Shown here piece after piece: positions 1 through 60,284 of a stretch of DNA of 64,000 bases. A program made the translations under genes and the position numbers. Origin of the DNA: Paraspadella gotoi (taxonomy: Eukaryota > Animalia > Chaetognatha); assembly GCA_051294375.1 (NCBI GenBank), contig CM119270.1, forward strand, positions 20,985,775 through 21,049,774, read 5' to 3'. Every line of letters begins with the position of its first letter. Positions within the stretch are counted from its first letter, which is position 1. The notes beneath the pieces are model-generated. The model had not been told where the DNA came from. It did not search any database and saw nothing but the letters and a program-made list of their open reading frames with translations.

Positions 1-13300
<13,300 letters not shown>

Positions 13301-14204: not shown

Positions 14205-14250
<46 letters not shown>

Positions 14251-14942
14251 ATAGAGGTCGTTAAAAGATATTTTGATTGAATAATTACTAACTAATTTAT
14301 TGATTTTAAGAAAATTAAATTATGTGCTTGACAAATTGAAGAATGATTAAAAGATTGATTAAACCTATTTCTTATGTTTAAAAAATATAATAATAATAAT
14401 AATATTAAGTTTATCCATTAAATTCAATGGATTAGCCATCTTTCATTTTGACTTTGGACAGGCTGTGTATCCTTGTATTCCCTTACAAGATGTTAACAAA
14501 GCCAGAACCCGCAAGCTTTCAATCAAGACTCTGATTTATTAACTCCAAAAGTACTTAACTTTCTTTCGTTGAATAGGTATAATATTTTTATGAAATATTT
14601 AAACTTATGTCAATCTTAATGGCCAGAAAAAAAATCTTACGAGATCCAAGGGAGAGCGGTTGCAGTGACTGACCAAGCGGATTGAGAACCATTGGAATCA
14701 CGGGTGAATGGAAGAGAACAGTTCACATCTGTAGGGACGACGACGATGAGGCCGACGTAGGCCATGCCGAGACCAAATCTGGGGAGAAGAGTCGGAGATG
14801 GTTAGGTGACTCTGTCTCTTGTCTATCTCTCTCTCTCTCTTCTCTTCTCTCTCTCTCCCTCTCTGGCCGACGTAGGCCATCCGAGACCAAATCTGGGAGA
14901 AGAGTTTGGAGATGGTTAGGTGAACTATGTCTCTGTCTCTCT

Positions 14943-14987
<45 letters not shown>

Positions 14988-15058
14988 CCTCTCTGGCCGA
15001 CGTAGGTCATCCCCGAGACCAAATCTGGGGAGAAGAGTTGGAGATGGTTAGGTGACTA

Positions 15059-15118
<60 letters not shown>

Positions 15119-15228
15119 TGTGCTCTTTCTCTCTCTCTGGCCGACGTAGGCCATCCCGACAACCAAATCTGGGGAGAAGAATTGGAGATGGTTAGGTGAC
15201 TATTGTCTTCTGTCTCTGTCTCTTCTCA

Positions 15229-15266
<38 letters not shown>

Positions 15267-15343
15267 CTCTCTCTCCCTCTCTGGCCGACGTAGGCCATCC
15301 GAGACCAAATCTGGGGAGAAGAGTTGAGATGGTTAGGTGACTA

Positions 15344-15402
<59 letters not shown>

Positions 15403-15598
15403 ATCTCTTCCCTTTGTCTCTTTCTCTCTCTCTCTCTCTGCCGACGTAGGCCATCCCGACACCAAAATCTGGGGAGAAGAGTTGGAAGATGGTTAGGTTA
15501 CTTTCTTTCTCTCTCTCTCTCTCTCTCTCTCGCCGACATAGGCATCCCACACCAAATTGGGAGAAAGAGTTGGAGATGGTTAGGTGACTATGTCTCTT

Positions 15599-15631
<33 letters not shown>

Positions 15632-15916
15632 GGCCGACGTAGGCCATGCCGAGACCAAATCTGGGGAGAAAAGTTGGAGATGGTTAAGTGACTATGTCTC
15701 TGTCTTCTCTCTCTTTCTCTCTCTCTCTCTGGCCGACGTAGGCCATCCCATACCAAATCTGGGGAGAAAAGTTGGAGATGGTTAGGTTACTTTCTCTCTC
15801 TCTCTATCTCTCTTCTCTCTCTTTCTCTTTTCTCTCTCTCTCTCTTGCCGACGTAGGCCATCGCCGAGACCAAATCTGGGGAGAAAAGTTGGAGATGGTT
15901 TAGGTGACTATGTCTT

Positions 15917-15965
<49 letters not shown>

Positions 15966-16022
15966 CCGACGTAGGCCATCCCGACACCAAATCTGGGAGA
16001 AGAGTTGAGATGGTTCGGTGAC

Positions 16023-16087
<65 letters not shown>

Positions 16088-17049
16088 CCTCCCCCCTCTC
16101 ACTAACCGCCAATAGTAGTAAAACCGAATCGATCCAGGCCACCTGCAATCCGATCGCCGCTGCGCCGCAGCCGCCGCCATGGCGACGCGGCGCCGCCCAA
16201 GACGTCGCTGAGAACTCCCAGAAGAGACAAGAGAGTCAAGTTGCCGGGCGAAGAAGACGGTCTCCGTCAGATTGACGAGCGGTTCCTGGTCGCAGATCAA
16301 TTCCCACTCGGCCACCATTGGAATGCGGACTTTGGGAACCTTTCAAGCATTTGGGGTTTTGGAATGGGGCGTCTCCGCGTAAGAGATGTGTTTCCTGAAT
16401 TGATCGTAAATGAGCTTGAATTTCTCAATCTCATTACAAATGTAGTTCTTGATCGAAACTGAGTCAATTTCGTATCATTCATCACTAAAAATACCTGATA
16501 ATTCTTCGGCAGCAGTTAGTTTATCATAGAAAACACATTAGAAATAACATATACATTAATATATACAGGAAGTCATTGTGGGAATGTTTCTTGTAACTTG
16601 TTATTATTTATTTTTTCTCAATTTTATAATTACTATAATTATACAATAATTAAACGGTATTTAAACCGGTTTTCCCAAAATGAAGTTATCTCCGCCAGCA
16701 GCAGCCAAGACCCTTTTCCATTTCTCTCACCTCAAACGTCCAATTTCCCGCGACGCATCCTCGGCCGGCAAATCTCCTGCGCGTCAAAGTCTCCAGAAGC
16801 GTAAGTGATATTAAGCCACCGCCGGCCGCCGCCGGCGCCGCCGGCGCCGCTCAAAAGGCGTCGCCATAGACTTCAACAGTTGTCGCCACCCAAAATGGCG
16901 GAGTGTGAACGGCCATCGAATCCCCAGGTAGAGGAGGAACAGGCAGTCATATTCCTTCCGCCATCAGAGCAAAGAAAATGCCCCATGGGGAACCAACCGC
17001 AAAGGCCAAGACGGCATTAGGAGAATCGTCAAGTTCGACGCGCCCCATG
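13636..17049 (-). pseudogene. Truncated, frameshifted copy of the SLC22 gene (exons 1 to most of 4); may be an assembly artefact
   Basis: Contains VAEWELICDQEPLVNLTETVFF and FCPDSPPWLIKKGRAREAYEILRRVAE with many indels; the 3' exons (19382-21082 equivalent) are absent. Confidence 0.7.
14749..16030 (-). repeat. Splice-acceptor tandem array (11 units) in the duplicated SLC22 copy
   Basis: Same ~65-bp unit (plus strand ggccgacgtaggccat.ccgagaccaaatctggggagaagagttggagatggttaggtgact) separated by (CT)n as at 22583-23870. Confidence 0.9.
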
Positions 17050-18290
17050 CGTTGAGGGAGGAAAGGAGAGGAAGTGTAAAGGAAAGGGAGTGAAAGGAAA
17101 AAATGTGAGAAGAATTATAAAAGGAAAGGAAAAAGAGAAAAAGGAAGAAATTAGGATAAGGAGAAAAATATGAAGGATGGGACAAAGAAAGAAATAAGAA
17201 AATTCAGGAAAGAAGGAAAATAGGAAAAAAAAAGCCAAAATAGTAAAGATTTTAAGAAATATTGAAGTAATAAAGAAAACAGTAAGGAGGAAATTAAATA
17301 ATAGAAATTAAAACAAATTAAACAATAAGATTGTAGAGAAAACCGTTTAGATGCGAAAAAAAGTTAATGAGGAAAAAACTGAACCAGAAGCTCGAAAAAG
17401 AATGAAAATCGCTTTGAGCCGAAAATCGTTTAAGAATTCACAGAATTAATTTTTTTTTCTATTTTGCATAGAAAACTAAAAGTTTTGGACTTAAAATCTG
17501 CAAATCTAAGTTCGCCTTTACTCTGTTTGGACTTTCATTCAGTAAGTAAACTCGGGTAATATTCTTTGATATTTCTCAACCAATAGACAAATCGAGACAA
17601 ATGTAATTATCAAGTATCAGCAGCTTTTTAAATTTGTGAATGTTTGCGAGTCAAAAGTATGTATTTTGCTGTGATTTTGATTTCTTGATCTCTGGGTATT
17701 GTGAATCTGACTTTACTTTTACCACCCATGATTTATTACACGAGGTACTTTTTACTGTCTTTACAGATTTCTTTTACTTTTTAAAAATAATTAGGTAAAG
17801 GGGCACAGTATTTGAAATAAAAAGAATTAAAATGATTTTTTTCATTCAAAATTCCTTGGCTTTTTTAGTTATTAGGAGTCGTTTAATTTTTTGATTATGT
17901 TCTATTTATTTGGCGTATTAATTACAAAGTACCGTTATGTCCTTGAATGACTCGGCGATAATTGATAGCATTTTTCCCGTCCTCTACCAAAAACTCAGCA
18001 AACACATTTTATAAAAACAAAACACCTTTTTGACTTCTCAAAAAGTAATTTATAACATAAATAAAGGAATAATTTTAGCAGGTTTCGCATTTTAACAAAG
18101 AAATAAAGTTAATAAGCAAAAAGGTATCATAAAAAAGATAGATTTTTAGCGTAGTGTTGTCTAAAGCTATTACGGTAAGTTTATAGCAGCTGATCCCTTT
18201 CTTCAATTAAATCTAGGGATCCGTGGTTTTCTCTTCTTCAATTACATCCTTATATTTATAATTTAACCATTTCTTCAATTACATCGTGTA

Positions 18291-18430
18291 TCAAGTGGTC
18301 GGCACTCTATTTTCTTTGGCCCATTTCTTCAAAACCCGGAATGAGATACTCGACTGAGGATTATTTGTGTTGGCGAAGAATTTGAATAGACGTCAACGCA
18401 GAGTTTCTTTGGTTCGTGACCCGCGATTAT
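18291..18430 (-). pseudogene. Duplicate of the TTC26 terminal exon, with indels
   Basis: Matches 26103-26240 ([11 protein letters not shown]...[12 protein letters not shown]) with several 1-bp indels; cag acceptor retained. Confidence 0.8.
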
Positions 18431-19381
18431 CTGAGATTATAAATGTAATGTAAATGTAATGTAAAATAATGTAAATGTTGATATTTTAAAATTTGAATAT
18501 TCCGGTGAGCTATGGTCTGATCATTTTAAAATCGTGAATTATGAAAAAAAAACAGAGCATGAAAGTAGATATTTTTGGCTTTTTTTTTCTATTTTTAACG
18601 CTGAATACATGAAATTTTTAATAACATTTTTTAGATTTTTTATTTACTTTTTATGAAGATCGAATTTTCAATAGCAATTTTTTTTAAATTTAAGATTTTA
18701 AATGATATTACTATCTTTTTTGAACTCTTAATTATCTATCTCACACTAATATCTTTGTTTGTTCACTCAAATAAAATATACGTTCCCAGTGCAACACTCT
18801 ACTGTCATGTTGTAAGGGAACCAGGTTTGCGATCCCGGAACCTAATGAACACGAACTATGGCTTTACTCAAAGAGCCAAAAGTTACACCTGAAGAAATTA
18901 GTATATATTGTTTGATTGCCACTGAGCATTTGACAGTTATTAAAAGTATAAGTAAGTCGGAAATTCACATAAGCAATAATCGATTTTTTTTTCATTTTTA
19001 ATTTTCAATTTTAACTTTCGTAATAGTGAAATAAGAGTTTTATAAATTTTTATTGATAAATCTTTATTACTTTTTGAAATCCTACTGTTTTTAGAATAGC
19101 TATATTAACTATATTATCACCAAACTCGTGTTCGTCCCCAAAAAGTATTAGTATCAAGAATTTTCATTCCTCCTTCATTCTTCTATTGTCTTTTGTCGAC
19201 TCAATGGTCACTAACGTTTGACAGTTTCTCCACTTTCTTCATCTCCATCCCTCTTTACCACCTACCACCATCTACCCTAACCACCTTCCCCCTCCTCTTT
19301 CCTACCACCTTCATCCCTACCCACCTTCCCCCTCTTCCTCCTTAACACCCTTCCCCTTTCACACCTTCCCCCTCCCCCTTT

Positions 19382-22035
19382 CTACCACCTTCCACCTGTC
19401 CCACCTTCCTCCTCCTCCCTACCACCCTTCCCACTCTCCTCCTTTCTACCACCCTCCACCCTTCCCACCTTCCTCCTCATCCCCAACACCCTCCACCCTT
19501 CCTTCTTCGTCTTCCTCCTCATCCTCTTCATGTCGTCCAGACTCTGAGGCAACGGCGTCCCCATCGTTTCCGCCAGGGGCGCCGCCATCGCCGCTACGAG
19601 GACGCCGAGGATCCCGAGCGCCGCTTCCACCGCCAGCGGCGTCCTCTTCTCAAAGTAGGAGAGGTAACTGGCGGCGATGGATGCGACGCGGCCGAAGAGC
19701 ATAGAGATGAGGAAAGTTCGAGCGCGGATGAGGGTAGGGAATGCCTCCTGAACAAGAAGAGTAGTATGGTGGGTAAGGTCAAGAAGCATCGCATTAAATT
19801 TTGGGCCCTGGTCTTTTATATTGCCCCATTCCTGTTCCTGATCCCTGAATATAGTTTTAACCTTAATATTTAACTGCTGTTAAATAAATATTCAACCAAG
19901 TCCTTAAACCGAATCTCTTACCCGAATACTTACCTTATTCCTTAACCCCAAACTCTATACCTTACCTTAACCCTAAACTCTATACCTTACCTTATCCGTT
20001 AACCCTAAACTCTATGCCCTACCTTATCCATTAACCCCAAACTCTATACCTTACCTTATCCATTAACCCTAAACTCTATACCTTACCTTAACCCTTAACC
20101 CCAAACTCTATACCTTACCTTATCCCTTAACCCCAAACTCTATACCTTACCTTATCCATTAACCTAAAACTCTACACCTTACCTTATCCATTAACCTAAA
20201 ACTCTATACCTTACCTTATCCCTTAACCCCCGAACTCTATACCTTACCTTATCCATTAACCCTAAACTCTATACCTTACCTTATCCATTAACCTAAAACT
20301 CTATACCTTACCTTATCCATTAACCTCAAACTCTATACCTTACCTTATCCCTTAACCCTAAACTCTATACCTTACCTAATCCCTAACTCTTGAATTAATT
20401 TTCAATTCTAAAAACTCACAGAAGTCTTAATTTAAGCTGAAATGGTGTGCTCTTGGGTAACATGGTCTAATTGATAACATTTTAAAAAGATTGTGCAAAT
20501 ATCTTCACTTGCATCTGTTTTTTCAACTCATATTATTTTCATTATGAAAAATTTATCACGCATTTGACTTTGGACAGACTATAATGGATTAAGGCCTCTA
20601 TCCCTCTTACAAGATAATAATATATCAGAACCCTGCAAGCTGTCAATCAAGACTTACGCAGTCAATTTAAATACTATTTATCTGTCTGTCTGTCTGTCTG
20701 TCCTCCCTGTCTTCCATTTGTTCTTTTATTTCTTCTCATCAATTCTAGTCTAGTGACTTCTTTGCAATTTTTTATTTTTTATCCTTGAAAACCTTTTTTT
20801 CCTATCCGTCTGTCCATCTGTCTTATCCCTTCCCCTTTTACCTGTTGCCACATAGAAAATGATTCCCAAGTCAGAGACTCCGCAGTCCTCACGAACAGGC
20901 CAATTGCTTTCTTCATCCCAGGCACCTGAACATCCACGTCGTCCACAGCCAGGCGCGTTGCCGCCATTGTCAGGTAGGCTAAGCCCATAGCAGCAAATCC
21001 AACTGACAAGGCTGGTCGACGATTGATGAAGAAACAGACTAACAAGCCGACAAACCGCGCGGGGATACCAACTCGGTCGCCACTTTAAAAAAAAAGAATA
21101 TCTTTTATGAAAAACTGTTATAAGTTAGTTTATTATTTAAGTATGAAGAGAAAATAAGTTTTAATTAGTTTTTTAATCTGTTTATAACAGAATAAAACAA
21201 ACTTTACCATGGTTGTAAAAAAAAAATAGCGATAGACTGAAAGAAAGAAATAATAATATTTCAATTCATTTATATTTATAAAAAAGATTATAACTTGCTT
21301 TTAATTTTTTAAGAATGTTTCAAACTTTTAATTTTACTTAATTGAAAATGAGTTTTAATTTTAAATTTTAAAATAAGTTTCACACTCCCCTTAAGTTGGT
21401 GTAAGAGAAACTGAGCCCGATGTAGACGACGTTAAGGTAAGACCAATAGAGGCTGGCAGCGATGAGAGGAACAATAACAAGGCTAGATCTGAGAGACTGG
21501 CGAAAAGCGTGAGAATCACGTGAGGATAAGGTGGTGACTGTCGGTTCAATTAAGTCGGCTTCATTGCTGCGACCGATGGATGACTTGTCGGCTTCCCTGC
21601 GAAGACTGACAAGTGAGTTGTCGGCTTCTTTGGTGAAAGTATTAGGTGACTTGTCGGCTTCTTTGTTTAGATTTTGAGGCGATCTGTCGGCCTTCTCTTT
21701 TCTCTCCAGATTCTTCAGCCAGAATTCTTCTTTTCCCTCTCCCTCTCCCTCTCTCTCTCCCTCTCCCTCCTCTCCACTTCCCACCACCTCCCTCATGAAC
21801 TTCTCCTCGTCCAAACTCTGACCTCGGCTCTCCGCGACCCGGCGAAGAATCTCGTAAGCCTCTCGGGCACGCCCCTTCTTGATGAGCCACGGGGGCGAAT
21901 CCGGGCAGAAGAAAAGGACGACGACAACGAAGATGTTAGAGCAGAACATGAGGAGGCAGAGTGTTCGCCATTCGGGGATGGCGTAGCTGAAAAGGTTGAT
22001 TTGATTGATTGATTGATTGATATATTGATTGATTA

Positions 22036-22083
<48 letters not shown>

Positions 22084-22647
22084 GAGGTCGTTTAAAAGAT
22101 ATTTTGATTGAATAATTACTAACTAATTTATTGATTTTTAAGAAAATTAAATTATGTGCTTGACAAATTGAAGAATGATTAAAGATTGATTAAACCTATT
22201 TCTTATGTTTAAAAATATAATAATAATAATAATATTAAGTTTATCCATTAATTCAATGGATTAGCCATCTTTCATTTTGACTTTGGACAGGCTGTGTATC
22301 CTTGTATTCCCTTACAAGATGTTAACAAAGCCAGAACCCGCAAGCTTTCAATCAAGACTCTGATTTATTAACTCCAAAAGTACTTAACTTTCTTTTCGTT
22401 GAATAGGTATAATATTTTTATGAAATATTTAAACTTATGTCAATCTTAATGGCCAGAAAAAAAATCTTACGAGATCCAAGGGAGAGCGGTTGCAGTGACT
22501 GACCAAGCGGGATTGAGAACCATTGGAATCACGCGGTGAATGGAAGAGAACAGTTCACATCTGTAGGGAACGACGACGATGAGGCCGACGTAGGCCATGC
22601 CGAGACCAAATCTGGGGAGAAGAGTCGGAGATGGTTAGGTGACTCTG

Positions 22648-22691
<44 letters not shown>

Positions 22692-22768
22692 TCTCTGGCC
22701 GACGTAGGCCATCCCGAGACCAAATCTGGGGAGAAGAGTTGGAGATGGTTAGGTGACTTGTCTCTGTC

Positions 22769-22816
<48 letters not shown>

Positions 22817-23044
22817 CTCTCTTCTCCCTCTCTGGCCGACGTAGGTCATCCCGAGACCAAATCTGGGAGAAGAGTTGGAGATGGTTAGGTGACTATGTCT
22901 CTGTCTCTGTCTCTCTCTCTCTCTTCTCGTCTCTCTCTCTTCTCTCTCTCTCTCTCTCTTTGTCTCTTTTCTCTCTCTCTGGCCGACGTAGGCCATCCCG
23001 ACACCAAAATCTGGGGAGAAGAATTGGAGATGGTTAGGTGACTA

Positions 23045-23104
<60 letters not shown>

Positions 23105-23209
23105 CTCTCTCTCCCTCTCTGGCCGACGTAGGCCATCCCGAGACCAAATCTGGGGAGAAGAGTTGGAGATGGTTAGGTGACTATGTTCTGTCTCTGTCTT
23201 CTCTCTCTC

Positions 23210-23248
<39 letters not shown>

Positions 23249-23432
23249 TCTCTTTCTCTCTCTCTCTCTCTGGCCGACGTAGGCCATCCCGACACCAAAA
23301 TCTGGGAGAAGAGTTGGAGATGGTTAGGTTACTTTCTTTCTCTCTCTCTCTCTCTCTCTCTGGCCGACATAGGCCATCCCGACACCAAATCTGGGAGAGA
23401 AGAGTTGAGATGGTTAGGTGACTATGTCTCTT

Positions 23433-23463
<31 letters not shown>

Positions 23464-23885
23464 GGCCGACGTAGGCCATGCCGAGACCAAATCTGGGGAG
23501 AAAAGTTGGAGATGGTTAAGTGACTATGTCTCTGTCTCTCTCTCTTTCCTCTCTCTCTCTCTGGCCGACGTAGGCCATTCCGATACCAAATCTGGGGAGG
23601 AAAAGTTGGAGATGGTTAGGTTACTTTCTCTCTCTCTCTCTATCTCTCTCTCTCTCTCTTTCTCTTTCTCTCTCTCTCTCTTGCCGACGTAAGGCCATCC
23701 CGAGACCAAATCTGGGGAGAAAAGTTGGAGATGGTTAGGTGACTATGTCTTTCTTTCTCTCTCTCTCTCTCTCTCTCATTCTCTCTCTCTCTCTCTCTCT
23801 GGGCGACGTAGGCCATCCCGACACCAAATCTGGGGAGAAGAGTGTTGAGTAGGTTGTGGACTATGTCTCTCTCTCTCTCTCTCTC

Positions 23886-23932
<47 letters not shown>

Positions 23933-24888
23933 CTCCCCCTCTCACCTAACCGCCAGGATAAGTAGTAAGAACGATCGGATCCAGGCCACCTGCAATCCGA
24001 TCGCCGCTGCCGCCGCAGCCGCCGCCATGGCGACGCGGCGCCGCCCAAAGACGTCGCTGAGAACTCCACAGAAGAGACAAGCAGTCAAGTTGCCGGCGAA
24101 GAAGACGGTCTCCGTCAGATTGACGAGCGGTTCCTGGTCGCAGATCAATTCCCACTCGGCCACCATGGAATGGGACTTGGGAACCTTTCAAGCATTTGGG
24201 GTTTTGGAAATGGGGCGTCTCCGAGTAAGAGATGTTTCCTGAATTGATCGTAAATGAGCTTGAATTTCTCAATCTCATTTACAAAATGTAGTCTTTGATC
24301 GAAACTGGTCCAATTTCGTATCATCATCACTAAAAATACCTGATAATTCTTCGGCAGCAGTTAGTTTATCATAAAACACATAGAAATAAATATACATTAA
24401 TATATACAGGAAGTCATTGTGGAATGTTTCTTGTAACTTGTTATTTTATATTTTTTTCTCAATTTTTAAATTAATTCATGTATAAATATTATAAATAATT
24501 AAACGGTATTTAAACCGGTTTTTCCCAAAATGAGTTATCTCCGCCAGCAGCAGCCAAGACCCTTTTCCATTTCTCTCACCTCAAACGTCCAATTTCCCGC
24601 GACGCATCCTCGGGCGCAAATCTCCTGCGGCGTCAAAGTCTCCAGAAGGTAAGTGATATTAAGGCCACCGCCGCCGCCGCCGGCGCCGCCGGCGCCGCTC
24701 AAAAAGGCGTCGCCATAGACTTCAACGTTGTCGCACCAAAATGGCGGAGTGTGAACGGCCATCGAATTCCCCAGGTAGAGGAAACAGGCAGTCATCCCTT
24801 CCACCATCAGGCAGAAGAAAATGCCCATGGGGAACCAACCGCAAAGGCCAAGACGGATTAGGAGATCGTCAAGTTCGACCGCGCCCAT
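19382..24888 (-). CDS. SLC22-family (organic cation/anion transporter-like) MFS transporter, about 6 exons
   Basis: Exons ~24888-24580, ~24339-23946 (indels near its 5' end), 22611-22471, 21986-~21385, ~21082-20842, 19747-19382. Hallmarks: LDDLLIRLG, VAEWELIC, GVLSDVFGRRRV, RFGLGMAYVG..CELF, PDSPPWLIKKGR..EA..IL, EAFPTLIR, LAETMGTPLPQSLDD. The exon 2 start and exon 4/5 junction are approximate. Confidence 0.88.
19935..20390 (+). repeat. ~32-bp minisatellite with CCCTAA-like motifs in the last SLC22 intron
   Basis: About 14 copies of ttaaccc(c/t)aaactctataccttaccttatcc. Confidence 0.9.
22240..22365 (-). mobile_element. ~150-190 bp dispersed repeat family (other copies ~14410, ~20560, ~38840, ~52670, ~54870)
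   Basis: Shared blocks gagtcttgattga.agcttgc.gggt, aggccttaa..cacca.agcctgtccaaagtca, atggataattttatatt; both orientations; all in introns. Confidence 0.7.
22583..23870 (-). repeat. Tandem array of 11 copies of the SLC22 exon-3 acceptor plus the first ~29 exon nt, with (GA)n spacers
   Basis: Sense unit agtcacCTAACcatctccaactcttctccccAG|ATTTGGTCTCGGGATGGCCTACGTCGGCC; starts at ~22583 (true exon), 22697, 22833, 22981, 23121, 23272, 23362, 23464, 23563, 23682, 23801. Confidence 0.92.
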
Positions 24889-26102
24889 GGTTGAGGGAGG
24901 AAAGGAGAGGAAGTGTAAAGGAAAGGGAGGAAAGGAAAAAATGTGAGAAGATATAAAAGGAAAGGAAAAAGAGAAAAAGGAAGAAATTAGGAAAGGAGGA
25001 AAAATATGAAGGATGGGACAAAGAAAGAAATAAGAAAATTCAGGAAAGAAGGAAAATAGGAAAAAAAAAGCAAATGTAAAGATTTAAGAAATATTGAAGT
25101 AATAAAGAAAACGTAAGGAGGAAATTAAATAATAGAAATTAAAACAAATTAACAATAAGATTGTAGAGATAAACCGTTTAGATGGAAAAAAAGTTAATGA
25201 GAAAAACTGAACCAGAAGCGAAAAGAATGAAAATCGCTTTGAGCCGAAATCGTTTAAGAATTCACAGAATTAATTTTTTTTTCTATTTGCATTAGAAAAC
25301 TAAAAGTTTTGGACTTAAAATCTGCAAATCTAAGTTCGCCTTTACTCTGTTTGACTTTCATTCAGTAAGAAACTCGGGTAAATTTCTTTGATATTTCTCA
25401 CCAAAGGACAAATCAGACAAATGTATTATCAAGTATCACAGCTTTTCTAAATTTGTGAATGTTTGCGAGTCAAAAGTATGTATTTTGCTGTGATTTGATT
25501 TCTTGATCTCTGGGTTTGTGAATTGACTTTACTTTTACCACCCATGATTTATTTACACGAGGTACTTTTACTGTCTTTACAGATTCTTTTATCTTTTAAA
25601 AATATTAGGTAAAGGGCACAGTATTTGAAATAAAAAGAATTAAAATTTGATTTTTCAAATTCCTTGGCTTTTTAGTTATTAGGAGTCGTTTAATTTTTTG
25701 AATTATGTTCTATTTATTTGGCGTATTAATTACAAGTACCTTATGTCCTTGAATGACTTCGGCGATAATTGATAGCATTTTTCCCGTCCTCTACCAAAAC
25801 TCAGCAAACACATTTTATTAAAACAAACACCTTTTTGACCTCTCAAAAAGTAATTTATTAACATAAAATAAAGGAATAATTTATACAGGTTCGCATTTTA
25901 ACAAAGAAATAAAGTTAATAAAGCAAAAAGGTATCATAAAAAAGATAGATTTTAGCGTAGTGTTGTCTAAAGCCTATTACGGTAAGTTTATAGCAGCTGA
26001 TCCCTTTCTTCAATTAAATCTAGGGATCCCGTGGTTTTCTCTTTTCTTCAATTACATCCTTATATTTATAATTTAACCTATTTCTTCAATTACATCCGTG
26101 TA

Positions 26103-26872
26103 TCAAGTGGTCGGCACTCTATTTTCTTTGGCCCATTTCTTCAAAACCCGGATGAGATACTCGACTTGAGGATTATTTGTGTTGCGAAGAATTTGAATGA
26201 CGTCACGCAGAGTTTCTTTGGGTTCGTGACCCGCGATTATCTGAGAGAAATAATTACTATAATTGTAAATAATGTAAATGTGAATATTTTAAAATTTTGA
26301 ATATTCCGGTGAGCTATGGTCTGATCATTTTAAAATCGTGAATTATGAAAAAAAAACAGAGCATGAAAAAGTAGATATTTTGGCTTTTTTTTCTATTTTT
26401 AACGCTGAATACATTGAAATTTTTAATAACATTTTTTAGATTTTTTATTTAACTTTTTATGAAGAATCAGAATTTTCAATACAATTTTTTTTTAAATTTA
26501 AGATTTTAAATGGATATTACTAATCTTTTTTGAACTTCTTAATTATACTATCTCACATCTAAATATCTTTGTTTGTTCACTCAAATAAAATATACGTTCC
26601 CCAGTGCAACACTCTACTGTTCATGTTGTAAGGGAACCAGGTTGCGATCCCGGAACCTAATGAACACGAACTTATGGCTTTACTCAAAGAGCCAAAAAGT
26701 TACACCTGAAGAAATTATGTATATATTGTTTGATTGCACTGAGCATTGACAGTTATTAAAGTATAAGTAAGTCGGAGAATCAACATAAGCAATAATCGAT
26801 TTTTTTCATTCATTTATTCTGACATTTACCGCCATTTTCGCTCAACTCATTTTTCCGGTAATTATATATAAT

Positions 26873-26920
<48 letters not shown>

Positions 26921-27044
26921 TCAATTGGTTTGCAAATTTGCTCCAGAAACCGCGAAATGTCGAGAGAAAATTTGCGCTACATTAAGAACCAGGTTATTTA
27001 ACCTTTAGGACTTTGATTAACCACATGAAACCCTTTTCCCAGTA

Positions 27045-27094
<50 letters not shown>

Positions 27095-30000
27095 ACTCTC
27101 TCTCTCTCTCTCTCTCTCTGCTTTTCTCTCTCTCTCTACTTTTCTTCCAGTTGACATTGCGCGTTTTAACTGCGATTTTATCAGACAAAATCTTTTTTCC
27201 CATATTACTAAACCCTTAATATACATACAATATAAAATAACCAATAAAAAATCTCATCCTGAAAACAATATTGCTAGTTTTATTTTATTAAGTTCTTTGG
27301 TTTCCACCTCAAACCTTACCTTAATTCTAAAATAAACAATTTACTTACTCTCACTTTATATTAACTATTAATTTATTAAAACATCCATAACTTTAATCCC
27401 GAATTTAGTTTAATTATAAACTTCCAGCCCATAAAAGTGAGTTATTTTTCTAACTCAAAACATGACAATTTAACCATAGCTTTAAAGATTAACCCGAAGA
27501 CCTTAACCAGAAGTTTTTTTTTTTTTTTTTTTTTTTTCAATTCATCTTTGCTTTTGACCTTATTTTTCATAATGTTATCAAATAATGTTATAAAATAATG
27601 TTATAATGTTATTTTTCATAATGTTATCTAATAACAAAATCCCTGGCAAGAGTCAGTCTCGTGACGGTCACTTGATAACAACAAAGGCGGTCACGTGATC
27701 AGAACAGGTTTTAAGTATAATATACTCATTTTGCATCTGTTTCATCTGATCATTTAAAAATGCCGACACTTCAAAAAGAAACTACTGAGGCCCACAATAT
27801 CGAACGCGCCGGTTCCTTCTTTTCTTTTATTTTATTTTTTTTTAATATTTTGTTTCGTTATTTTTCTTTCCTAAAGACGCTGATTCTCATTTGCATATGG
27901 CAATATTTTATTTTAAATAGAAACATGTTAATTTATTAGCGTGTTACCAATAAAACATAAATGTATTTTCCTATTATAACAATCCGTAAAAAGGGCCTGG
28001 ACCATTTGAAGTATGCCTACAACTTTTTTTTCAGAGTAATATTAAATTAAATAACCTCAAAACCAAAAAAAATGATTCTCCAATCAAAGGTGCTCTGGAT
28101 ATAAATACTATTGAATGCGAAACGATGTGAAATTTAGGACAGTTTTATACATTAATTAAATTAGATCGTTTAATTTTTCTAGTTATATAATATATTTTAG
28201 AATTTAAAATATTTTTTTCTCCTTTCTTTATTCGCAGATTAATATTGGTTAATGATCCCAAGTTGGAAAAATGATTGATTTACAAACTTTTGACTTTATA
28301 TTTGGAACGGTTCTTGCTGTTGCTGATTTTGTCACTGATTTTAAAACTATGTTGGATAATCTAACCTCAAGAGATTTTACCTTGAAAATGTTTGGACTAG
28401 TATTTATGGCAATCATGTTGATTCATAATCTGTATCGATGGTTTATGGAATAATTATTTTTAAAAAATATGGTTATTTTTCCCTAAAATATGGAAATCTT
28501 CCATACAGAGATTATTAACCATGTTTCTTTCTTCATTGGATTAGGAACTATTCCATTAACTATTGATTTGAATGCGTCACGTAATGTGCAATCAAAACCA
28601 GTTTTGGTCTATAAAGAAAATATTTTGTTTGTGACTAACTCCATTCATGTATTGATAGAATCCTATTTCCAGATGCTTTTGCAATCTGCATCACTTTTTT
28701 ATATCATTACAGTCAAAAGTGATGAGCAATGCTACATTGATACCTCAGTTAATGTTCAAGAAACTCTAGAAAGTAAGATGTTTTAACTCTTAACTCAAAA
28801 TGACCATCATAATGAACCTGTTAAGTATTTTAAAAGAAATTGTTCTTTCTGAGGAAGAACCAAAGTATAAAAACATAATCCTATGTCAACTTTTAGGACA
28901 AAAAGATTTAACCAACATTGTCGCGTGAACAGTTAAAGCTTTTTCCTATTATTATTAAAATTTGCGAAAACGATTTTAATTTTAATAACGAATTTATTTT
29001 TCAATTATAACGGACATGTTTCATATTTTTAGTCGGATCGCTTTATCAAGCCAGATCCCGACTCTATAACTCACTTTTTATAACTCACTTTTTCGGTCCG
29101 TCGGTCCGCCCCCTCAATATTGTCGGGCACACACTTATATCATGTCAGAACATCGAATTATGATAAATTATGCAAAAAAAATGATGTCCGTCGTCCGTCT
29201 GTCTGTCGTTCCGTCCGTCCGTCCGTCCGTCCGTCCGTTCCGTCCGTCCCACCTTAGCAAAAAAACCCAATTACTCGTGATTGGATGGATGGATTTAAAT
29301 GAAATTTTGTGTGTGGATAGGTAAGTGTGTGATTGAGCTGGATATTAAGTTTCGATGGAATCGTCCGAGTGGAAATGAGTTTAAATGGAAAAAAAACAAA
29401 AAAATATATTCACTATTTGAACACCAATTGCTCATGAGTGGATGGGCTGATTGACCTGGAATTTTGTATGTGGGTAGGAAAGTGTGTGATTGAACAGGAA
29501 ATCAAGTTTCGATGGAATAGTTTGAGTGGAAATGAGTTTAAATGGAAAAAAACAAAAAACCTGTTTTACTAATTGATTATGCTTCTTTTTTCCTTTTATA
29601 TTAAATGTATCTGCAGGATGTATTAATAAATCAAATAATTAATCAGTTAATTAATCAATTAGTAAATAAATTAATCAATAATTAATTAATTAGTCAATCA
29701 ATCCGTCCATCCGTCCCATCTTAGCAAAAAGCTCCAATAACTCGTGATTGGCTGGTTGGATTGGAATTAAATTTTGTGGTGTGGGTAGGAAAGTGTGTGA
29801 TAAAGCTGGATATAAAATTTCGATTGAATCTGTGAGTGGAAATTAGTTTAAATGGAAAAAACCTAAGTCGAATTTACTAAAATATTTTTACTTATTTTAA
29901 CCAATAAATACTCCAATTAATCATAATTGGATGGATAGATTGAGTTGAAATTTTGTGTGTGGGTAGGAAAACGTATGACGAAGCTTGATATAAAGTTTCA

Positions 30001-30677
30001 GTGGAAACGTACCAGTGGAAATGAGTTTAAATAAAAAAATATGAGTCACATTTACTTGAATCTTTTTATTATTTTAACCCATGATAGATTGAGATGAAAT
30101 TTTGTGAGCCGGTAGGAAAGTGAGTGAAGAAGCTAGATATAAAGTTTTGACGGAATGCAAGTTGAAAAAATTATGAAAGTTGAAAAAATGATGCAAGTTA
30201 AAAAAATCTTAAAAGCATAAGGATCGTCGCTATTGCATAAAAAAGAGAGAGGAGAGAGAGAAAGAGAGAGTGAGAGAGAGAGAGAGAGTGAGAGAGAAAG
30301 AGAGAGAGTGAGGAGAGAGAGAGAGAAGGAAACATAAAATAAAAAAATCTTAAAAGACTCAAGATCGAGCCAGAGCCCACTATCATAGAAAATTAATGAA
30401 AAAAACCGGGAAAAAAACGAATGAATCATGCGATAACGAATTGTTGATGTACTAGTAATTGATTGAGGTAATACTAATTGATTGATGTAATAGTAATTTA
30501 TTGATGTAATAGGAATTGATTAATGATTCGATGATAATCAATTATTGATGCGATGATAGTCATTCACTGCTGTGATGATAGTCATTCAGTGATGCGATGA
30601 TTGTCATTCATTGATGCGATGATTGTCATTCATTGATGCGATGATAGTCAATAAAACAAACAAATGCGTGTATGAGT

Positions 30678-30717
<40 letters not shown>

Positions 30718-30756
30718 AGAGAGAGAGAAAGAAAGAGAGAGAGAGAAAAGAGAGAG

Positions 30757-30792
<36 letters not shown>

Positions 30793-32285: not shown

Positions 32286-32325
<40 letters not shown>

Positions 32326-37911: not shown

Positions 37912-37967
<56 letters not shown>

Positions 37968-40900: not shown

Positions 40901-41693
40901 CCTGGACAACACAGAAAACATCTCAATTTAGCGGTTGATTGTTTCGTTTGATAGATTGATCCATTGATTGACGGACATTGCATTAGTGAAGGTTTGATCT
41001 ATGCACCATATCAGCGAAAATCAATTATTTTATTTCATTATAATTGTTCAGTTGACATAATTAATTCATTTCAATTATTCATCCATCTATTCATTTATTC
41101 ATCCATCCATTCATCAATTAAACCATCTATTCATTTATTCCTCCAATTATTCATTTAATCATCCATCTATTAATTTATTCTTCCACCCATTCATCAATTA
41201 AACCATGTATTCATTAAATCATCCCTCTATTCATTAATTCATCCATCTATTCATGCGACTTTTCCATGACCTCACCGGTTGAACTCTAAGATTGTCATCG
41301 CTCCCGCGTAATCCCGAACCTCAAGAAGGTCTTCGAATTTCGGAACGCCTGAGAGAGAAGCGGATAATTATTTATAAGTTATAACAACAATTAAAACAAA
41401 CAAAAACAAACAAAAAAACCTTAAAAGCATAATGAAAAAAAAACGTAACAATAAAAACAACGAGAAAAAAAAAACAGCAAAAAGAATAACAACAACAAAA
41501 TTATCTCGACATTCAAACAATAATGACGAAAAGTGAAAGTGAAAAGCAAAAACAACGTGATACTTTTGATAAAAGCAACTAAAAAGCATTTCCTACTTTT
41601 CTTTGCTTTTTTTGCTTTTTTCTCTTTCTTTTCTTGTTCTGCTTTCATCTCCTTTTCTTTTCCCGCCGACGTTTTTGCTCGCGACAAAATCAT
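26103..41693 (-). CDS. TTC26: Intraflagellar transport protein 56 (TTC26/DYF-13), 14 exons, ~563 aa
   Basis: Phase-consistent exons: 41693-41597, 41348-41276, 40901-40808, 40281-40078, 39461-39352, 38770-38633, 38395-38263, 37801-37627, 36715-36631, 36195-36078, 35139-35036, 34509-34371, 34230-34147, 26240-26103. Motifs [114 protein letters not shown] match TTC26 as recalled. Confidence 0.96.
28271..33967 (+). CDS. XK-related-like multipass membrane protein, paralog 1 (2 coding exons), nested antisense in the last TTC26 intron
   Basis: Exon 1 28271-28772 ([30 protein letters not shown]; ~3 single-base deletions at 28430-28535), GT-AG intron 28773-32456 with ctaac branch motif, exon 2 32457-33967 in phase (HGEVYNQ..TNLNCSC). 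Colinear with 57977-60004. Frameshifts may be read errors or decay. Confidence 0.75.
29026..31612 (+). mobile_element. DINE-1/Helentron-like non-autonomous element(s) with internal tandem repeats
   Basis: 5' hairpin agtcggatc...gatcccgact, (GTCC)n tract 29185-29250, ~4-5 internal repeats (gaaattttgtgtgtgggtaggaaag...gtggaaatgagtttaaat), 3' hairpin cgggc-ttt-gcccg at ~31585; reverse copy of the 5' end at ~55947-55998. Classification from architecture only. Confidence 0.5.
31128..31205 (+). mobile_element. Degenerate tRNA-derived SINE head
   Basis: tggcgc...gtagcgt followed by ccgggttcgcgccc (B-box-like); no complete cloverleaf. Confidence 0.4.
31785..31830 (+). repeat. ~45-bp dispersed element terminus (other copies ~1912, ~55615 reversed, ~55867, ~61638)
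   Basis: ttatcgtaggcagatccgacattgtttgctcaaacttgtttt and close variants recur five times. Confidence 0.7.
35490..36072. repeat. Pyrimidine-rich (TTTTTCCC)n tract in TTC26 intron 10
   Basis: Visible directly; generates spurious FP/KG ORFs. Confidence 0.9.
37010..37650 (-). repeat. Tandem array of 8 copies (~76-84 bp) of the TTC26 exon-8 3' end plus donor
   Basis: Plus-strand unit aatcaattcactc(g/a)cgccta..cctgtcccaaagtc at ~37037, 37120, 37197, 37282, 37358, 37442, 37526 and 37610 (true junction), with (CAAT/CAAC)n spacers. Confidence 0.9.
40281..40515 (-). repeat. 36-bp tandem repeat of the TTC26 exon-4 acceptor
   Basis: Plus-strand cctgat at 40281 (true), 40313, 40349, 40385, 40421, 40457, 40505; sense unit tttactttCTAACtcccccaatcAG|GC. 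Confidence 0.88.
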
Positions 41694-41871: not shown

Positions 41872-41884
41872 ATTGCTTAGCAAC
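41872..41884. promoter_or_regulatory. Candidate RFX X-box upstream of TTC26
   Basis: ATTGCT-T-AGCAAC, a near-palindromic match to the X-box consensus, ~180 bp upstream of the ATG of an IFT gene; IFT genes are established RFX targets. Confidence 0.55.
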
Positions 41885-42039
41885 GGATCCTCTGCCCGAG
41901 AGCAGAAAGAGAGAGAGAAAAAGAGAGAGAGAGAAACATATGTCTTTTGTTTAAATATCGATAAAGACCAAAAAAGAGTCCAGCATCGAGAGCCATCCAG
42001 TATTCTAAAGAAAAATAAGATATAGATATATATACATAT

Positions 42040-42085
<46 letters not shown>

Positions 42086-44325: not shown

Positions 44326-44363
<38 letters not shown>

Positions 44364-52008: not shown

Positions 52009-52041
<33 letters not shown>

Positions 52042-55000
52042 CAGAGCGTCTCAGAGAAAAAGGAGACCTCTCTCTACTAATTTGATAACAAATATTTCGC
52101 AAATGTTAAAAAGCGCTGATGAAGACTCACATTGGAGTCGAAACATGTCTGTTTTTTTAAATAAAATCGTTGTAGTAACAAAAGCAAAATTATCTTTGCT
52201 AATAATTGCATAAAATACGATAATATGCAAATGAGATTGAAGAGTTGGTGAGTGAGAATTAGCGGATGGTCGGCGAGATGAAGGAAGATGTTCCGAGAAC
52301 CAGGTACATCGCGACCCGACCCCCTTTCTCTCCAGCTGGCGACGACTTACCTTGACGAGTTCCGCCTTTACAACACCTCACCTCTCTCCGATCCTGTTTA
52401 CTATTATCAACGGATCACCGTCTTGCGTCAACGCTCCTTCCAATCCAGTCGTGCCCGTGGCCGTCCGCAGGGCGTCACCGCCGTCGCCTCCCTCAGGGTT
52501 TTCAAAGAGTGGGACGTTTTCTTGGAGGAGTTGACGGAAATCTTTGGGGTGCACGAGATCGTCGCTTTCGCTTACAAGGTCGAAACAAAAAAAAAGAAAA
52601 AGATTAAAATCAAAATTTTGCACTGCGGCGCAAAAGACCGTATTGACGTTGTATGGGTGATTTCCTCAAATAGGCCTTAAACCACCAAAGCCTGTCCAAA
52701 GTCAGGGGCAAGATAGCTTATTTATTAAATGAATGGATAATTTTTATATTGGTTGTACCAATTTCATATAGAAACATAAAACAAAGCTTGTTGAAAGATG
52801 ATGGGATTGGTCTAAGTCCCAATACAATTGAGAAAAGCCTTCAAAAGTTATAGGACGTCAAAGTTGATTGGTATAGAAAATCCGAAGACAACAAATTATT
52901 TTTTTTTTTCAAGAATAGTCAATAACTTTTCCTTATTATTTTATAATATACAATTGGCTAAACAAAGTTAAAAAAATTGACATTTTATAAGCATAGTACA
53001 AAATGTAAAAAAATCCCAAGGCAAAAATTTACAAACATGAAATTAATTTTTTTTAGGACATATTGGCGGTTTAAGATTGTCCCAAGTAATTTTTATAAGC
53101 TCTGTTTGGTAAGGCGCGAACTCAGGTAAAATGTCAAACGAGAAGCAAAGCGGACTCACTTCGGTTTTGACAGAGAATCAGAATATAAGAGGAATAAGAT
53201 ACTTAATATGTGAATGGGTTAATGGTTGAAGTAGGTCTGTCCCGCTTATGTTAAAAATGCTCATAACTCTCCTATACATAGTTGGTCGCTTATTTGTTAA
53301 GACAGAAAAAAAACCTCAAATCTAAGGGACTGCGAGCGCCGCCTTCAGGAAATGATAAAACTATAAAGAATAAAAGATGGAATTTCGATGCAGTGCGTGT
53401 CATAAATACATGGGCTGAGAAAGTTATTAGTAGCGCCGCGAGTACTCGCGGAGCAACTATATGAGTNNNNNNNNNNNNNNNNNNNNNNNNNNNNNNNNNN
53501 NNNNNNNNNNNNNNNNNNNNNNNNNNNNNNNNNNNNNNNNNNNNNNNNNNNNNNNNNNNNNNNNNNNNNNNNNNNNNNNNNNNNNNNNNNNNNNNNNNNN
53601 NNNNNNNNNNNNNNNNNNNNNNNNNNNNNNNNNNNNNNNNNNNNNNNNNNNNNNNNNNNNNNNNNNNNNNNNNNNNNNNNNNNNNNNNNNNNNNNNNNNN
53701 NNNNNNNNNNNNNNNNNNNNNNNNNNNNNNNNNNNNNNNNNNNCAACTTTTCTGCTCCTAGATTGCGCTCCGGGTTTCATCTGCGTGCTCATCGCTAGTT
53801 GTCTCTGCTCGTGGTCCTGTCCCACTTTACATTAAAAATACTCATAACTCGACTCATAGTTGGTTGCTCATTTGTAAGACGAGATAAAAAACCTCAAATC
53901 TAAGTGACTGCTAGCGCCGTCGTTCTAGGAAATTCTAAAACTATAAAGAATATAAAGACATATTGAAAAAGAAAGTCACTGCGGCGCAACAAATGGATGG
54001 TCTGTATCTTGTTCTTCTTATATTGTCTTCATCTCGACCTCTATCCTTTTCTCAAATCTTTGTTGAGAATTTTTCTCTCTCTTTTTTTCTCTCTCTCTTC
54101 CCTTACTCTCACCTAATTCTCACTCNNNNNNNNNNNNNNNNNNNNNNNNNNNNNNNNNNNNNNNNNNNNNNNNNNNNNNNNNNNNNNNNNNNNNNNNNNN
54201 NNNNNNNNNNNNNNNNNNNNNNNNNNNNNNNNNNNNNNNNNNNNNNNNNNNNNNNNNNNNNNNNNNNNNNNNNNNNNNNNNNNNNNNNNNNNNNNNNNNN
54301 NNNNNNNNNNNNATGTGGATGAAGACTTAAATTAAAAGTTGAAACATGTTCAATGTTTAAAAGCTGATACGAATATAAGNNNNNNNNNNTCCCACTTACA
54401 TTAAAAATACTCATAACTCGACTATAGTTGGTTGCTCATTTGTTAAGACGAGAAAAAACCTCAAATCTAAGTGACTGCTAGCGCCGTCTTCAGGAAATTC
54501 TAAGACTATAAAGAATAAAAGACATATGAAAAGAAAGTCACTGCGGCGCAACAAATTGGATGGTCTCATCTTGTTCTTCTTTATTTTTTCAAAGGAACGA
54601 GGCAACTGTTGCCTCGATTTCAACCGCTGCGCCGACGCCGCTTCCTCCTTCAGGTCAGCGATAGCAAGCAGACGACCTGGCAACGACAATCTGAGAGTTG
54701 CAAAGGTTCGTATCAAACTCAAACTGATTGAATTATTTATTGATTGATTCATTCTTCTATTAGATTGATGATTGATTACATATCGATATATATGTTACAC
54801 AGCTCACCCCTCGCCCTTTCTCTTATCCAATTGAAACATTCATTGATAGGGAAGCCATGTACTCTGTTAGTGAATAAACGAGACTGGGAGTCTTGATTGA
54901 GAGCTTGCAGGGTCCTGCTTTGTTATCATCTTGTACGAGGGACGGAGGCCTAAACCCACCAAAAGTCAGGAGACCAGATAGCTTATTTATTTATTCAATG

Positions 55001-55476
55001 GATAATTTTTATATTGTTTGTACCAATTTAATAAATAGTTTGGAGACCCTCCAAATAGCTGGCCCCTTTCTTCAGATACTCCAGCAGTGGGGCATCGTGC
55101 TGAATAAACGAGACTGTGAGAGAGTCTTGATTGAGAGCTTGCTTGCTTGTTATCATTTTGGAGACCCTCCAAATAACCGGCCCCTTTCTTCAGATACTCC
55201 AGCAGTGGGGCATCGTGCTGAATAAACAAGACTGTGAGAGAGTCTTGATTGAGAGCTTGCTTGATTGTTATCATCTTGGAGACCCTCCAAATAACCGGCC
55301 CCTTTCTTCAGATACTCCAGCAGTGGGGCATCGCGCTGATGTTCCTCAACGATCCTTCTGCTTTAGAGAAGTTCGAGGAAGCGTTGGCCATTTGCGAAGG
55401 ACGAGACGAAGTCTTAGCGAAAAGCGTCGGGAGATACTTAAAATGGGCGGAGAACAGACTGAGAAGAGAAAATTAA
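42924..55476 (+). CDS. Uncharacterised protein with an Ala/Asp-rich segment and C-terminal TPR-like repeats, about 6 exons, ~425 aa
   Basis: Phase-consistent GT-AG model: 42924-43044, 43218-43619, 43800-44035, 52336-52578, 54595-54705, 55312-55476. Splicing yields TPR-like AFAYK|ERGNCCLDFNRCADAASSFRSAI and VAK|ILQQWGIALMFLNDPSALEKFEEALAI. Joining across the 8.3-kb intron is inference; exons may be hidden in gaps. Confidence 0.65.
44097..44420 (-). mobile_element. Penelope/retrozyme-like repeat carrying a hammerhead motif (44146-44198) with a 5-nt insertion
   Basis: Minus strand gcgCTGATGA-attga-agactcacattggagtc-GAAA-catgtc-tgttttt then aataaa; shares aagaattgag...tggtcaga.gtgaggacagg with 60300-60342. 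Confidence 0.7.
45747..48082 (-). CDS. XK-related-like multipass membrane protein, paralog 2 (divergent, several 5' frameshifts), nested antisense in the TPR-gene intron
   Basis: Across frames: LDIGTDIKTF, HSFLSSIYGLIVI, IGLGSFPLSFDL, VKSFIQMLIQ, then a 568-aa ORF with FAPFLLLRVFS, LSFLPFVNSL, LIFLVVPSI, colinear with paralogs 1 and 3. Could be a pseudogene. Confidence 0.65.
48765..49988. mobile_element. Non-autonomous TIR DNA transposon (hAT-like)
   Basis: Left end TAGTGTTCCGATTAACCGTTA versus reverse complement of right end CAGGGTTTCGAATAACCGTTA; identical 7-bp flank cttagta on both sides; subterminal taacggtta repeats. Confidence 0.7.
50205..50405 (+). mobile_element. tRNA-derived SINE-like element, copy 1
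   Basis: A-box-like tggtgccggagg, B-box-like gggttctagccc, hairpin ctgtaaca-tgg-tgttacag; repeated at 50688-50905. Confidence 0.6.
50688..50905 (+). mobile_element. tRNA-derived SINE-like element, copy 2
   Basis: Indel-rich direct repeat of 50205-50405. Confidence 0.6.
51215..51430 (-). pseudogene. Possible decayed Penelope GIY-YIG endonuclease C-terminal fragment
   Basis: Frameshifted minus-strand peptides in the expected order: DSAIT/EH, DDCKILR, NNKSKRLATE, MNDKPDS. Resemblance judged by eye. Confidence 0.35.
52108..52157 (+). ncRNA. Minimal type I hammerhead ribozyme (Penelope-type), intact core
   Basis: Stem I AAAAGCG/UGUUUUU, CUGAUGA 52116-52122 plus one extra A, stem II GACUC/GAGUC, GAAA 52140-52143, palindromic ACAUGU, GUC site ending at 52149, then AATAAA. 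Confidence 0.8.
55040..55334 (+). repeat. 118-bp tandem repeat triplicating the last-exon acceptor of the TPR gene
   Basis: ggcccctttcttcAG|atactccagcagtggggcatcg with AG ending at 55075, 55193 and 55311. Confidence 0.9.

Positions 55477-60223: not shown

Positions 60224-60284
<61 letters not shown>

What the first reader, a model, noticed from the sequence alone, without database searches (positions are those of the whole stretch)
14749..55334. Introns in three unrelated genes are filled with tandem copies of their own splice junctions
Seen: at least 7 junctions are locally amplified: SLC22 intron 2 acceptor x11; TTC26 exon-8 donor x8, exon-4 acceptor x7, exon-3 donor x2, exon-7 donor ~x5, exon-11 donor x3; TPR last acceptor x3. 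In each case the functional copy is the terminal one, the extra copies extend into the intron, and the unit usually includes exon sequence. The units are unrelated to each other, so this is not one transposon. Inference: a junction-centred duplication process that expands introns, combined with splicing that ignores or exploits near-perfect decoy sites. An alternative is that selection simply removes duplications extending into exons.
Basis: partly seen in the sequence, partly recalled or inferred. Interest (0 to 1): 0.82.

Follow-up and report, generated by a model that had tools for sequence, protein, structure and literature searches.

The report
Splice-junction "mirage" repeats, one copy used
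In three neighbouring genes of an animal, seven exon-intron borders are copied in tandem into the intron, a repeat type already known from lancelets and humans; the one transcript seen skips the extra copies at the two borders tested, but at an eighth border it uses a likely duplicated splice signal 21 bases further on, which would add seven amino acids to a conserved cilia protein.

Summary
All seven junction arrays are present at about the stated copy numbers. Two were checked in reads and occur in three DNA samples from two studies. They are "mirages", minisatellites spanning an exon-intron border, described in amphioxus (PMC3087553, PMC3902484) and human F7 (PMC1557585); this scan has noted them in at least 13 genomes. 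"The functional copy is terminal" follows automatically from any junction-spanning tandem duplication, so it does not show targeting. Enrichment is modest: 7 of 39 junctions against 114 of 1,997 control sites (3.1-fold, p=0.007). An intron-only null gives P=0.02-0.13, in a window chosen after the fact where 18.6% of bases are tandem repeat. One spliced contig joins the exon-proximal IFT56 exon-3 donor to the exon-proximal exon-4 acceptor, skipping seven decoys. New here: that contig passes the intact ancestral exon-4 donor and uses a stronger, probably duplicated donor 21 nt downstream. This adds 7 residues in frame, whereas 59 of 61 homologues have no insertion. Verdict: new, unusually dense member of a known kind; a junction-targeted process is not shown.

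The parts
14750..16035 (-). SLC22-like intron 2 acceptor array, 11 units of about 90-155 bp (29 nt exon + (GA)n + branch-like CCTAAC + pyrimidine tract + CAG), second version of the locus
22583..23870 (-). Same SLC22-like acceptor array, 11 units, in the complete version of the gene; exon-adjacent acceptor at 22612/22611
13635..18997 (-). 5.4-kb second version of 21467-26815 (IFT56 last exon + SLC22 exons 1-4), differing by 182 indels and 15 substitutions outside the array; likely noisy long-read duplicate
34715..35045 (-). IFT56 exon-11 donor (35035) with degenerate copies at 34832 and 34715, weaker one at 34811
37012..37646 (-). IFT56 exon-8 donor array, 8 units of 76-85 bp with 20 nt of exon; donor is probably GC at 37626
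38133..38270 (-). IFT56 exon-7 donor (38262) with degenerate GCTGCAG|GT copies at 38197, 38180, 38165
40036..40083 (-). IFT56 exon-4 donor pair: ancestral-position donor at 40077 and a stronger, probably duplicated donor 21 nt downstream that the spliced contig uses (exon ends at 40057); the window lacks one base there
40282..40522 (-). IFT56 exon-4 acceptor with six upstream copies (40313, 40349, 40385, 40421, 40457, 40505); 36-bp perfect unit; exon-adjacent site 40281 is the one used
40743..40823 (-). IFT56 exon-3 donor duplicated (39-bp unit); first copy (40807) used, copy at 40768 skipped
55039..55339 (+). TPR-like gene last acceptor, 3 copies (55076, 55194, exon-adjacent 55312), 118-bp unit whose intronic half matches a dispersed intronic repeat at about 54871-54935
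26109..41348 (-). IFT56/TTC26 gene, exons 2-14 (first exon not located)
19520..24890 (-). SLC22-like transporter gene, six exons, with sequencing frameshifts
52243..55476 (+). TPR-like gene, three exons visible, gaps of N in its first intron

Best explanation
These are minisatellites whose unit spans an exon-intron border ('mirages'), likely made by ordinary slippage or template switching in a repeat-rich genome and likely kept because the spliceosome uses the exon-adjacent copy, as the one transcript seen does at both borders tested. Shown: the arrays, their unrelated units, multi-copy state in reads for two of them, and skipping of one donor decoy and six acceptor decoys in a spliced contig. 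Inferred: any tandem duplication across a border leaves one intact copy next to the exon and puts the others inside the intron; such events are nearly neutral, while wholly exonic ones are purged, and unequal exchange then amplifies the unit. Inferred: choosing the first donor but the last acceptor points to recognition across the exon, not to 5'-to-3' scanning alone. Where a nearby copy is stronger and in frame it can take over: at IFT56 exon 4 the contig uses a donor 21 nt downstream (7.5 against 5.5 of 9 consensus matches), which would add 7 residues in a predicted inter-helix loop.
For: Arrays and counts. Tandem repeats cover 18.6% of the window's called bases, and 19 of 23 complex arrays do not span a junction by TRF limits (three of these 19 are parts of junction arrays). 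Spliced contig of X8 (depth 41.4) joins 40808 to 40281; the decoy cycle has depth 2.2, below an intronic piece at 5.87. 0 of 33 listed copies are both in frame and stop-free, while the +21 donor gives an open frame. TPR unit: a 3-nt TGA overlap joins exon position +28 to an upstream intronic repeat, and a later internal deletion gives 118 bp. Precedent: PMC3087553 (passages), PMC3902484 (passage), PMC1557585 (abstract and discussion).
Against: Junctions carry copies more often than splice-like control sites: 7 of 39 against 114 of 1,997 (3.1-fold, p=0.007), and 4 of 39 against 36 of 1,997 at the strict threshold (5.7-fold, p=0.006). The whole-window placement null gives 4 seen against 0.93 expected (P=0.011). 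Pure chance placement may therefore be insufficient. RNA evidence is one contig from one run whose RNA status is a guess by the tool. All listed decoys would shift the frame or add a stop, so decay of such transcripts could hide their use. F7-type upstream-first selection would not predict use of the downstream exon-4 donor.
Confidence: 0.72

Rival explanations
1. Duplication is biased towards splice junctions, for example by transcription- or splicing-coupled lesions (R-loops, G-rich tracts after donors, (GA)n or (TTGA)n tracts beside splice sites), so junctions seed minisatellites several times more often than other intronic DNA.
For: 3-6-fold excess over control sites; five such sites plus the exon-4 donor in one gene; units at SLC22 and exon 8 end in microsatellite tracts, and those at exons 4 and 7 lie in G-rich tracts. 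PMC3087553 suggests mirages may be general in cephalochordates and says the mechanism is unclear.
Against: The intron-only null gives P(>=4)=0.13 and P(>=5)=0.037 (15 arrays), or 0.086 and 0.019 without the 7.9-kb intron (11 arrays). The window was selected for this feature. Donors and acceptors tested separately are mostly not significant. Breakpoints in the exon vary from 2 to 29 nt.
Confidence: 0.18
2. The copies are maintained as regulated alternative splice sites (unproductive splicing coupled to decay, or back-up sites).
For: Decoys keep AG or GT/GC signals in most copies; one probable duplicate is used in mRNA.
Against: No joint to any of seven decoys in X8, and decoy-unit depth is at intronic background. 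Copies at exons 7 and 11 are decayed. Amphioxus mirages are reported not to disturb splicing.
Confidence: 0.05
3. Several arrays are assembly or long-read artefacts.
For: The window is error-prone: contigs add single bases at three places in 1.6 kb, and the 5.4-kb duplicate differs almost only by indels.
Against: Two arrays are supported in three DNA runs from two studies. Both versions of the SLC22 array have 11 units with the same copy-specific variants and similar spacings at each index. Exon-8 units differ by substitutions shared between neighbours.
Confidence: 0.05

Closest known systems
Amphioxus 'mirages' (Adh3, globins BflGb6 and BflGb9, troponin C, PGBD5); PMC3087553 and PMC3902484, passages read
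   Same: Minisatellite-like tandem copies of 5' or 3' exon-intron boundaries, gene-specific units (10-160 bp there, 16-155 bp here), splice signals kept in many copies, normal splicing retained, several genes of one genome affected.
   Different: A different animal: no listed IFT56 above 86% on exon 8; an earlier unchecked note suggests an arrow worm. Higher local density (7-8 of 39 junctions). One probable duplicate is the site used. Copy-number and somatic instability, reported for amphioxus, was not tested here.
Human F7 intron 7 37-bp VNTR; PMC1557585, abstract and discussion read
   Same: First unit holds the real donor, identical pseudo-sites follow and stay silent; matches the IFT56 exon-3 donor, where an identical 9-mer copy is skipped.
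   Different: F7 covers donors only. Here acceptors are also arrayed and the last is used. At exon 4 a stronger downstream site is used over an intact upstream one, which in F7 happened only with a perfect consensus.
Gene-structure change by tandem duplication (PMC2812944, passages read; PMC3265369, abstract read)
   Same: Tandem repeats at exon-intron boundaries activate cryptic sites and elongate exons or introns.
   Different: No new intron is seen here; the change is a 21-nt donor shift.

Membership tests
Mirage minisatellite (exon-intron boundary tandem repeat) | Head-to-tail copies whose unit spans an exon-intron boundary | tested here: met
   Clear for SLC22, IFT56 exons 3 and 8 and TPR (16-29 nt of exon); marginal for exon-4 acceptor (2 nt) and exons 7 and 11 (degenerate)
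Mirage minisatellite (exon-intron boundary tandem repeat) | Unit derived from the host gene's own boundary, not a dispersed element | tested here: met
   Units are unrelated; self-BLAST finds no dispersed copies of them, except that the TPR unit includes part of a dispersed intronic repeat
Mirage minisatellite (exon-intron boundary tandem repeat) | Extra copies lie in the intron and many keep splice signals | tested here: met
Mirage minisatellite (exon-intron boundary tandem repeat) | Normal mRNA is still made from the authentic site | tested here: met
   2 of 7 listed junctions tested, both use the exon-adjacent site in one contig; 5 of 7 untested
Mirage minisatellite (exon-intron boundary tandem repeat) | Copy-number variation between alleles or cells | tested here: inconclusive
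   Cycle-to-flank depth ratios of roughly 3-5 in three samples are too noisy to compare; both SLC22 versions have 11 units
Single transposable element family | Shared sequence or termini among the insertions | tested here: not met
   No similarity between units of different arrays
Intron gain by tandem duplication | A new intron position bounded by duplicated AG|GT | tested here: not met
   IFT56 model aligns without extra introns inside the arrays; only a donor shift is seen
   No whole genome is held; window-only tests give 2.5-6-fold, P 0.006-0.13

The most novel reading that the evidence does not exclude
This genome duplicates splice junctions at several times the background rate, so that about one junction in five carries decoy copies, and this is a working route for splice-site sliding: the IFT56 exon-4 donor is a duplicate caught after taking over, inserting seven residues into an otherwise length-invariant ciliary protein. 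The genome would then be a natural, thousands-of-sites experiment on how the spliceosome weighs position against strength.
Probability: 0.22. Interest if true: 0.62.

Novelty: new member of a known kind. Interest (0 to 1): 0.3.

Why it matters
As single loci these arrays are known and mostly harmless. What is worth a follow-up is the density, and the one case where a probable duplicate donor has replaced the ancestral one and changes a conserved protein. If the excess holds genome-wide, it would give the first quantitative handle on how mirages arise (called unclear in PMC3087553) and many natural tests of exon definition against scanning. I found no genome-wide test in my searches, but these cover open-access text only.

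Tried and rejected
No whole genome is held, so no genome-wide test. Homologue searches: one search used a wrong reading frame and found nothing, so it is no evidence; (SLC22 last exon) found nothing at E<=0.01; one search was also out of frame. Pfam on single exons gave no significant family; the orphan ORFs gave none. One search listed no holder on record as RNA; X8 is treated as RNA because it shows spliced joints. No reads were laid on the exon-7, exon-8 and exon-11 donors, the SLC22 array or the TPR array, so their real copy number and site use stay open. Rejected: one transposon (units unrelated); recursive splicing or mini-exons in the SLC22 and TPR units (no donor-like site seen in the units by inspection); polarity as evidence of targeting (geometric consequence); assembly stutter for the tested arrays. 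The multiple-alignment count of substitutions was inflated by misalignment and was replaced by the pairwise count. Literature searches gave no paper on this organism's junction repeats or a genome-wide test (listings only read). The original amphioxus Adh3 paper was not among the results and was not read. The IFT56 fold (pTM 0.36, local pLDDT about 60) only weakly supports a loop at the insertion point.
Full report
Setting. The window is animal DNA, 2,167 bases N, with tandem repeats over 18.6% of called bases. No whole genome is held. Three genes carry the arrays. IFT56/TTC26 lies on the minus strand: exon 8 hits 1,276 proteins, best 86%, and IFT56 in the PDB. Twelve exons join into an open 485-aa model at most 77% identical to the 61 full-length homologues aligned, and the last exon lies at about 26.2 kb. 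An SLC22-like gene lies on the minus strand (best PDB hits OCTN2 and OAT1, E 0.002-0.02). A TPR-like gene lies on the plus strand: its last exon hits 17 proteins, and 4 of 4 scanned are TPR-rich. An earlier unchecked note calls the organism likely an arrow worm; I did not test this.

Observation. All seven arrays exist. Counting the real site: SLC22 acceptor 11; IFT56 exon-8 donor 8, exon-4 acceptor 7, exon-3 donor 2, exon-11 donor 3 plus a weak one, exon-7 donor 4 with GT; TPR acceptor 3. Exon sequence in the copies is 16-29 nt for four arrays, but 2 nt for the exon-4 acceptor and 6-9 nt for exons 7 and 11. Extra copies span 91% of SLC22 intron 2, 63% of IFT56 intron 8, 61% of intron 11, 50% of intron 3, 39% of the TPR intron and 21% of intron 7. 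32 of 39 junctions have no copy scoring 10 or more.

Is it real DNA? The assembly is noisy. A 5.4-kb segment occurs twice with 182 indels and 15 substitutions against 3,843 matches outside the array, and contigs add single bases at three places in 1.6 kb. The arrays tested still hold. In three DNA runs from two studies the exon-3 donor pair is covered, spanned with no differences in X1 and X5. The 36-bp acceptor cycle collapses to a contig at 737.5, 82.2 and 31.9 depth against flanks of 144-199, 13-30 and 8-14. The two SLC22 versions each have 11 units with index-matched variants and similar spacings. Nine runs hold the region and four were laid.

Which site is used? One 1,251-nt contig of run X8 (depth 41.4) joins 40808 to 40281, the exon-adjacent donor and acceptor. 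It skips one donor copy with an identical 9-mer and six acceptor copies. The decoy cycle has depth 2.2, below an intronic piece at 5.87. Loose ends continue into exons 2 and 6. First donor with last acceptor fits recognition across the exon (inference). Caveat: 0 of 33 listed copies are both in frame and stop-free (SLC22 frames are unreliable), so decay could hide their use, and contigs drop rare forms.

The exception. The same contig runs through the intact donor at the homology-predicted end of exon 4 (40078) to 40057 and joins exon 5 there. The window reads a non-canonical end at that point, but X1 and X5 show one more base behind 40056, which makes it CAG|GTGCGT. The two sites share an exact 8-nt core and 14 of 21 bases; 0 of 268 control AG|GT sites outside arrays repeat their 8-nt core within 40 nt. 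So it is probably a degenerate duplicate, though point mutation is not excluded. It matches the donor consensus (recalled) at 7.5 against 5.5 of 9 positions. It adds VQCDGWQ in frame; 59 of 61 homologues have the shorter length and 2 lack the region. In a fold of a hemichordate homologue the position is a loop before helix 151-163 (low confidence). Whether the proximal donor is also used is unknown.

More than chance? Three window-only tests. (a) Junctions against splice-like control sites on both strands. Dropped from the controls: exons, microsatellites, sites near N, the duplicate segment, the junction arrays and extra copies of other arrays. Result: 7 of 39 against 114 of 1,997 (3.1-fold, p=0.007); 4 of 39 against 36 of 1,997 at score 20 (5.7-fold, p=0.006); donors and acceptors apart are mostly not significant. 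(b) Uniform placement of complex TRF arrays over the window: 4 of 23 on a junction against 0.93 expected, P=0.011, similar over five settings; three of the 19 others are parts of junction arrays. (c) Placement within introns only: 2.10 expected of 15, P(>=4)=0.13, P(>=5)=0.037; without the 7.9-kb intron 1.86 of 11, P=0.086 and 0.019. The window was picked for this feature, so these P values overstate the case. A modest excess is plausible, not established.

Mechanism. A tandem duplication across a donor gives exon-donor-intron start-[exon end-donor-intron start]; across an acceptor, the mirror image. The exon-adjacent copy is intact and the rest is intronic by construction, so the polarity carries no information on targeting. 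The TPR unit records its history: exon position +28 joins an upstream intronic repeat through a 3-nt TGA overlap, then an internal deletion gives the 118-bp unit. SLC22 and exon-8 units end in (GA)n and (TTGA/TTGG)n tracts. These are the marks expected of slippage or template switching followed by unequal exchange (established knowledge, inferred here).

What is known. Amphioxus globin genes carry 'mirages', tandem duplications of both 5' and 3' boundaries that do not disturb splicing, also reported for Adh3 (PMC3087553, passages) and for troponin C and PGBD5 (PMC3902484, passage). Human F7 intron 7 has a 37-bp VNTR whose first unit holds the real donor; downstream pseudo-sites are functional but silent, and only a perfect-consensus one competes (PMC1557585, abstract and discussion). 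Boundary repeats that alter gene structure are described in PMC2812944 (passages) and intron birth by duplication in PMC3265369 (abstract). No supplements were read. The scan's own notes list 18 such findings in at least 13 genomes (eight shown, unchecked). My other searches (listings) showed no genome-wide test and no report for this organism.

Verdict. Observation confirmed; interpretation partly supported; new member of a known kind. Interest 0.30, resting on the density and on the shifted exon-4 donor, which stands on one contig.

Noticed in passing
window 34370 and 37626 (minus): IFT56 exon 12 has a GC donor (AAG|GCGAGT). Exon 8 probably does too: the GC cut gives the 9-residue span of 55 of 61 homologues, the nearest GT gives 11. 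Not checked on RNA.
   Followed up: partly
window 13559-18997 and 21467-26870: The 5.4-kb duplicate is circularly permuted: the 78 bp left of the second version match the 78 bp right of the first. Assembly error or insertion of a circular intermediate; unresolved.
   Followed up: partly
window 32429-33964 (+), 28274-28783 (+), 57902-60001 (+): AT-rich single-exon ORFs (512 aa, a broken piece, 700 aa) related to each other at 64-70% DNA identity; two are nested antisense in the 7.9-kb last IFT56 intron; the two long ones have no Pfam match.
   Followed up: partly
window 19929-20382: 32-bp x14 minisatellite inside SLC22 intron 5 carries an AAG|GTAAG donor-like motif in sense orientation but is not a copy of that intron's own donor.
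   Followed up: no
window 14447-14531, 20563-20654, 38842-39004, 52672-52768, 54874-55034, 9103-9161: A dispersed repeat of up to about 170 bp sits in introns of all three genes; part of it is inside the TPR junction unit.
   Followed up: partly
window 60082-60410 and 60687-60985: Inverted pair of about 330 bp at 80% identity, with related copies near 44.3-44.5 kb; MITE-like.
   Followed up: no
window 62398-62510 and 63167-63491: Arrays built on TTAGGG-like words (13-19 bp and 38 bp units) inside the scaffold.
   Followed up: no
window 42920-44035 (+): A GC-rich three-exon gene with an Ala/Asp-rich repeat; its middle exon has no Pfam match.
   Followed up: partly
window 21389 (minus): SLC22 exon-4 donor reads GG instead of GT/GC; probably a sequencing error.
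   Followed up: no
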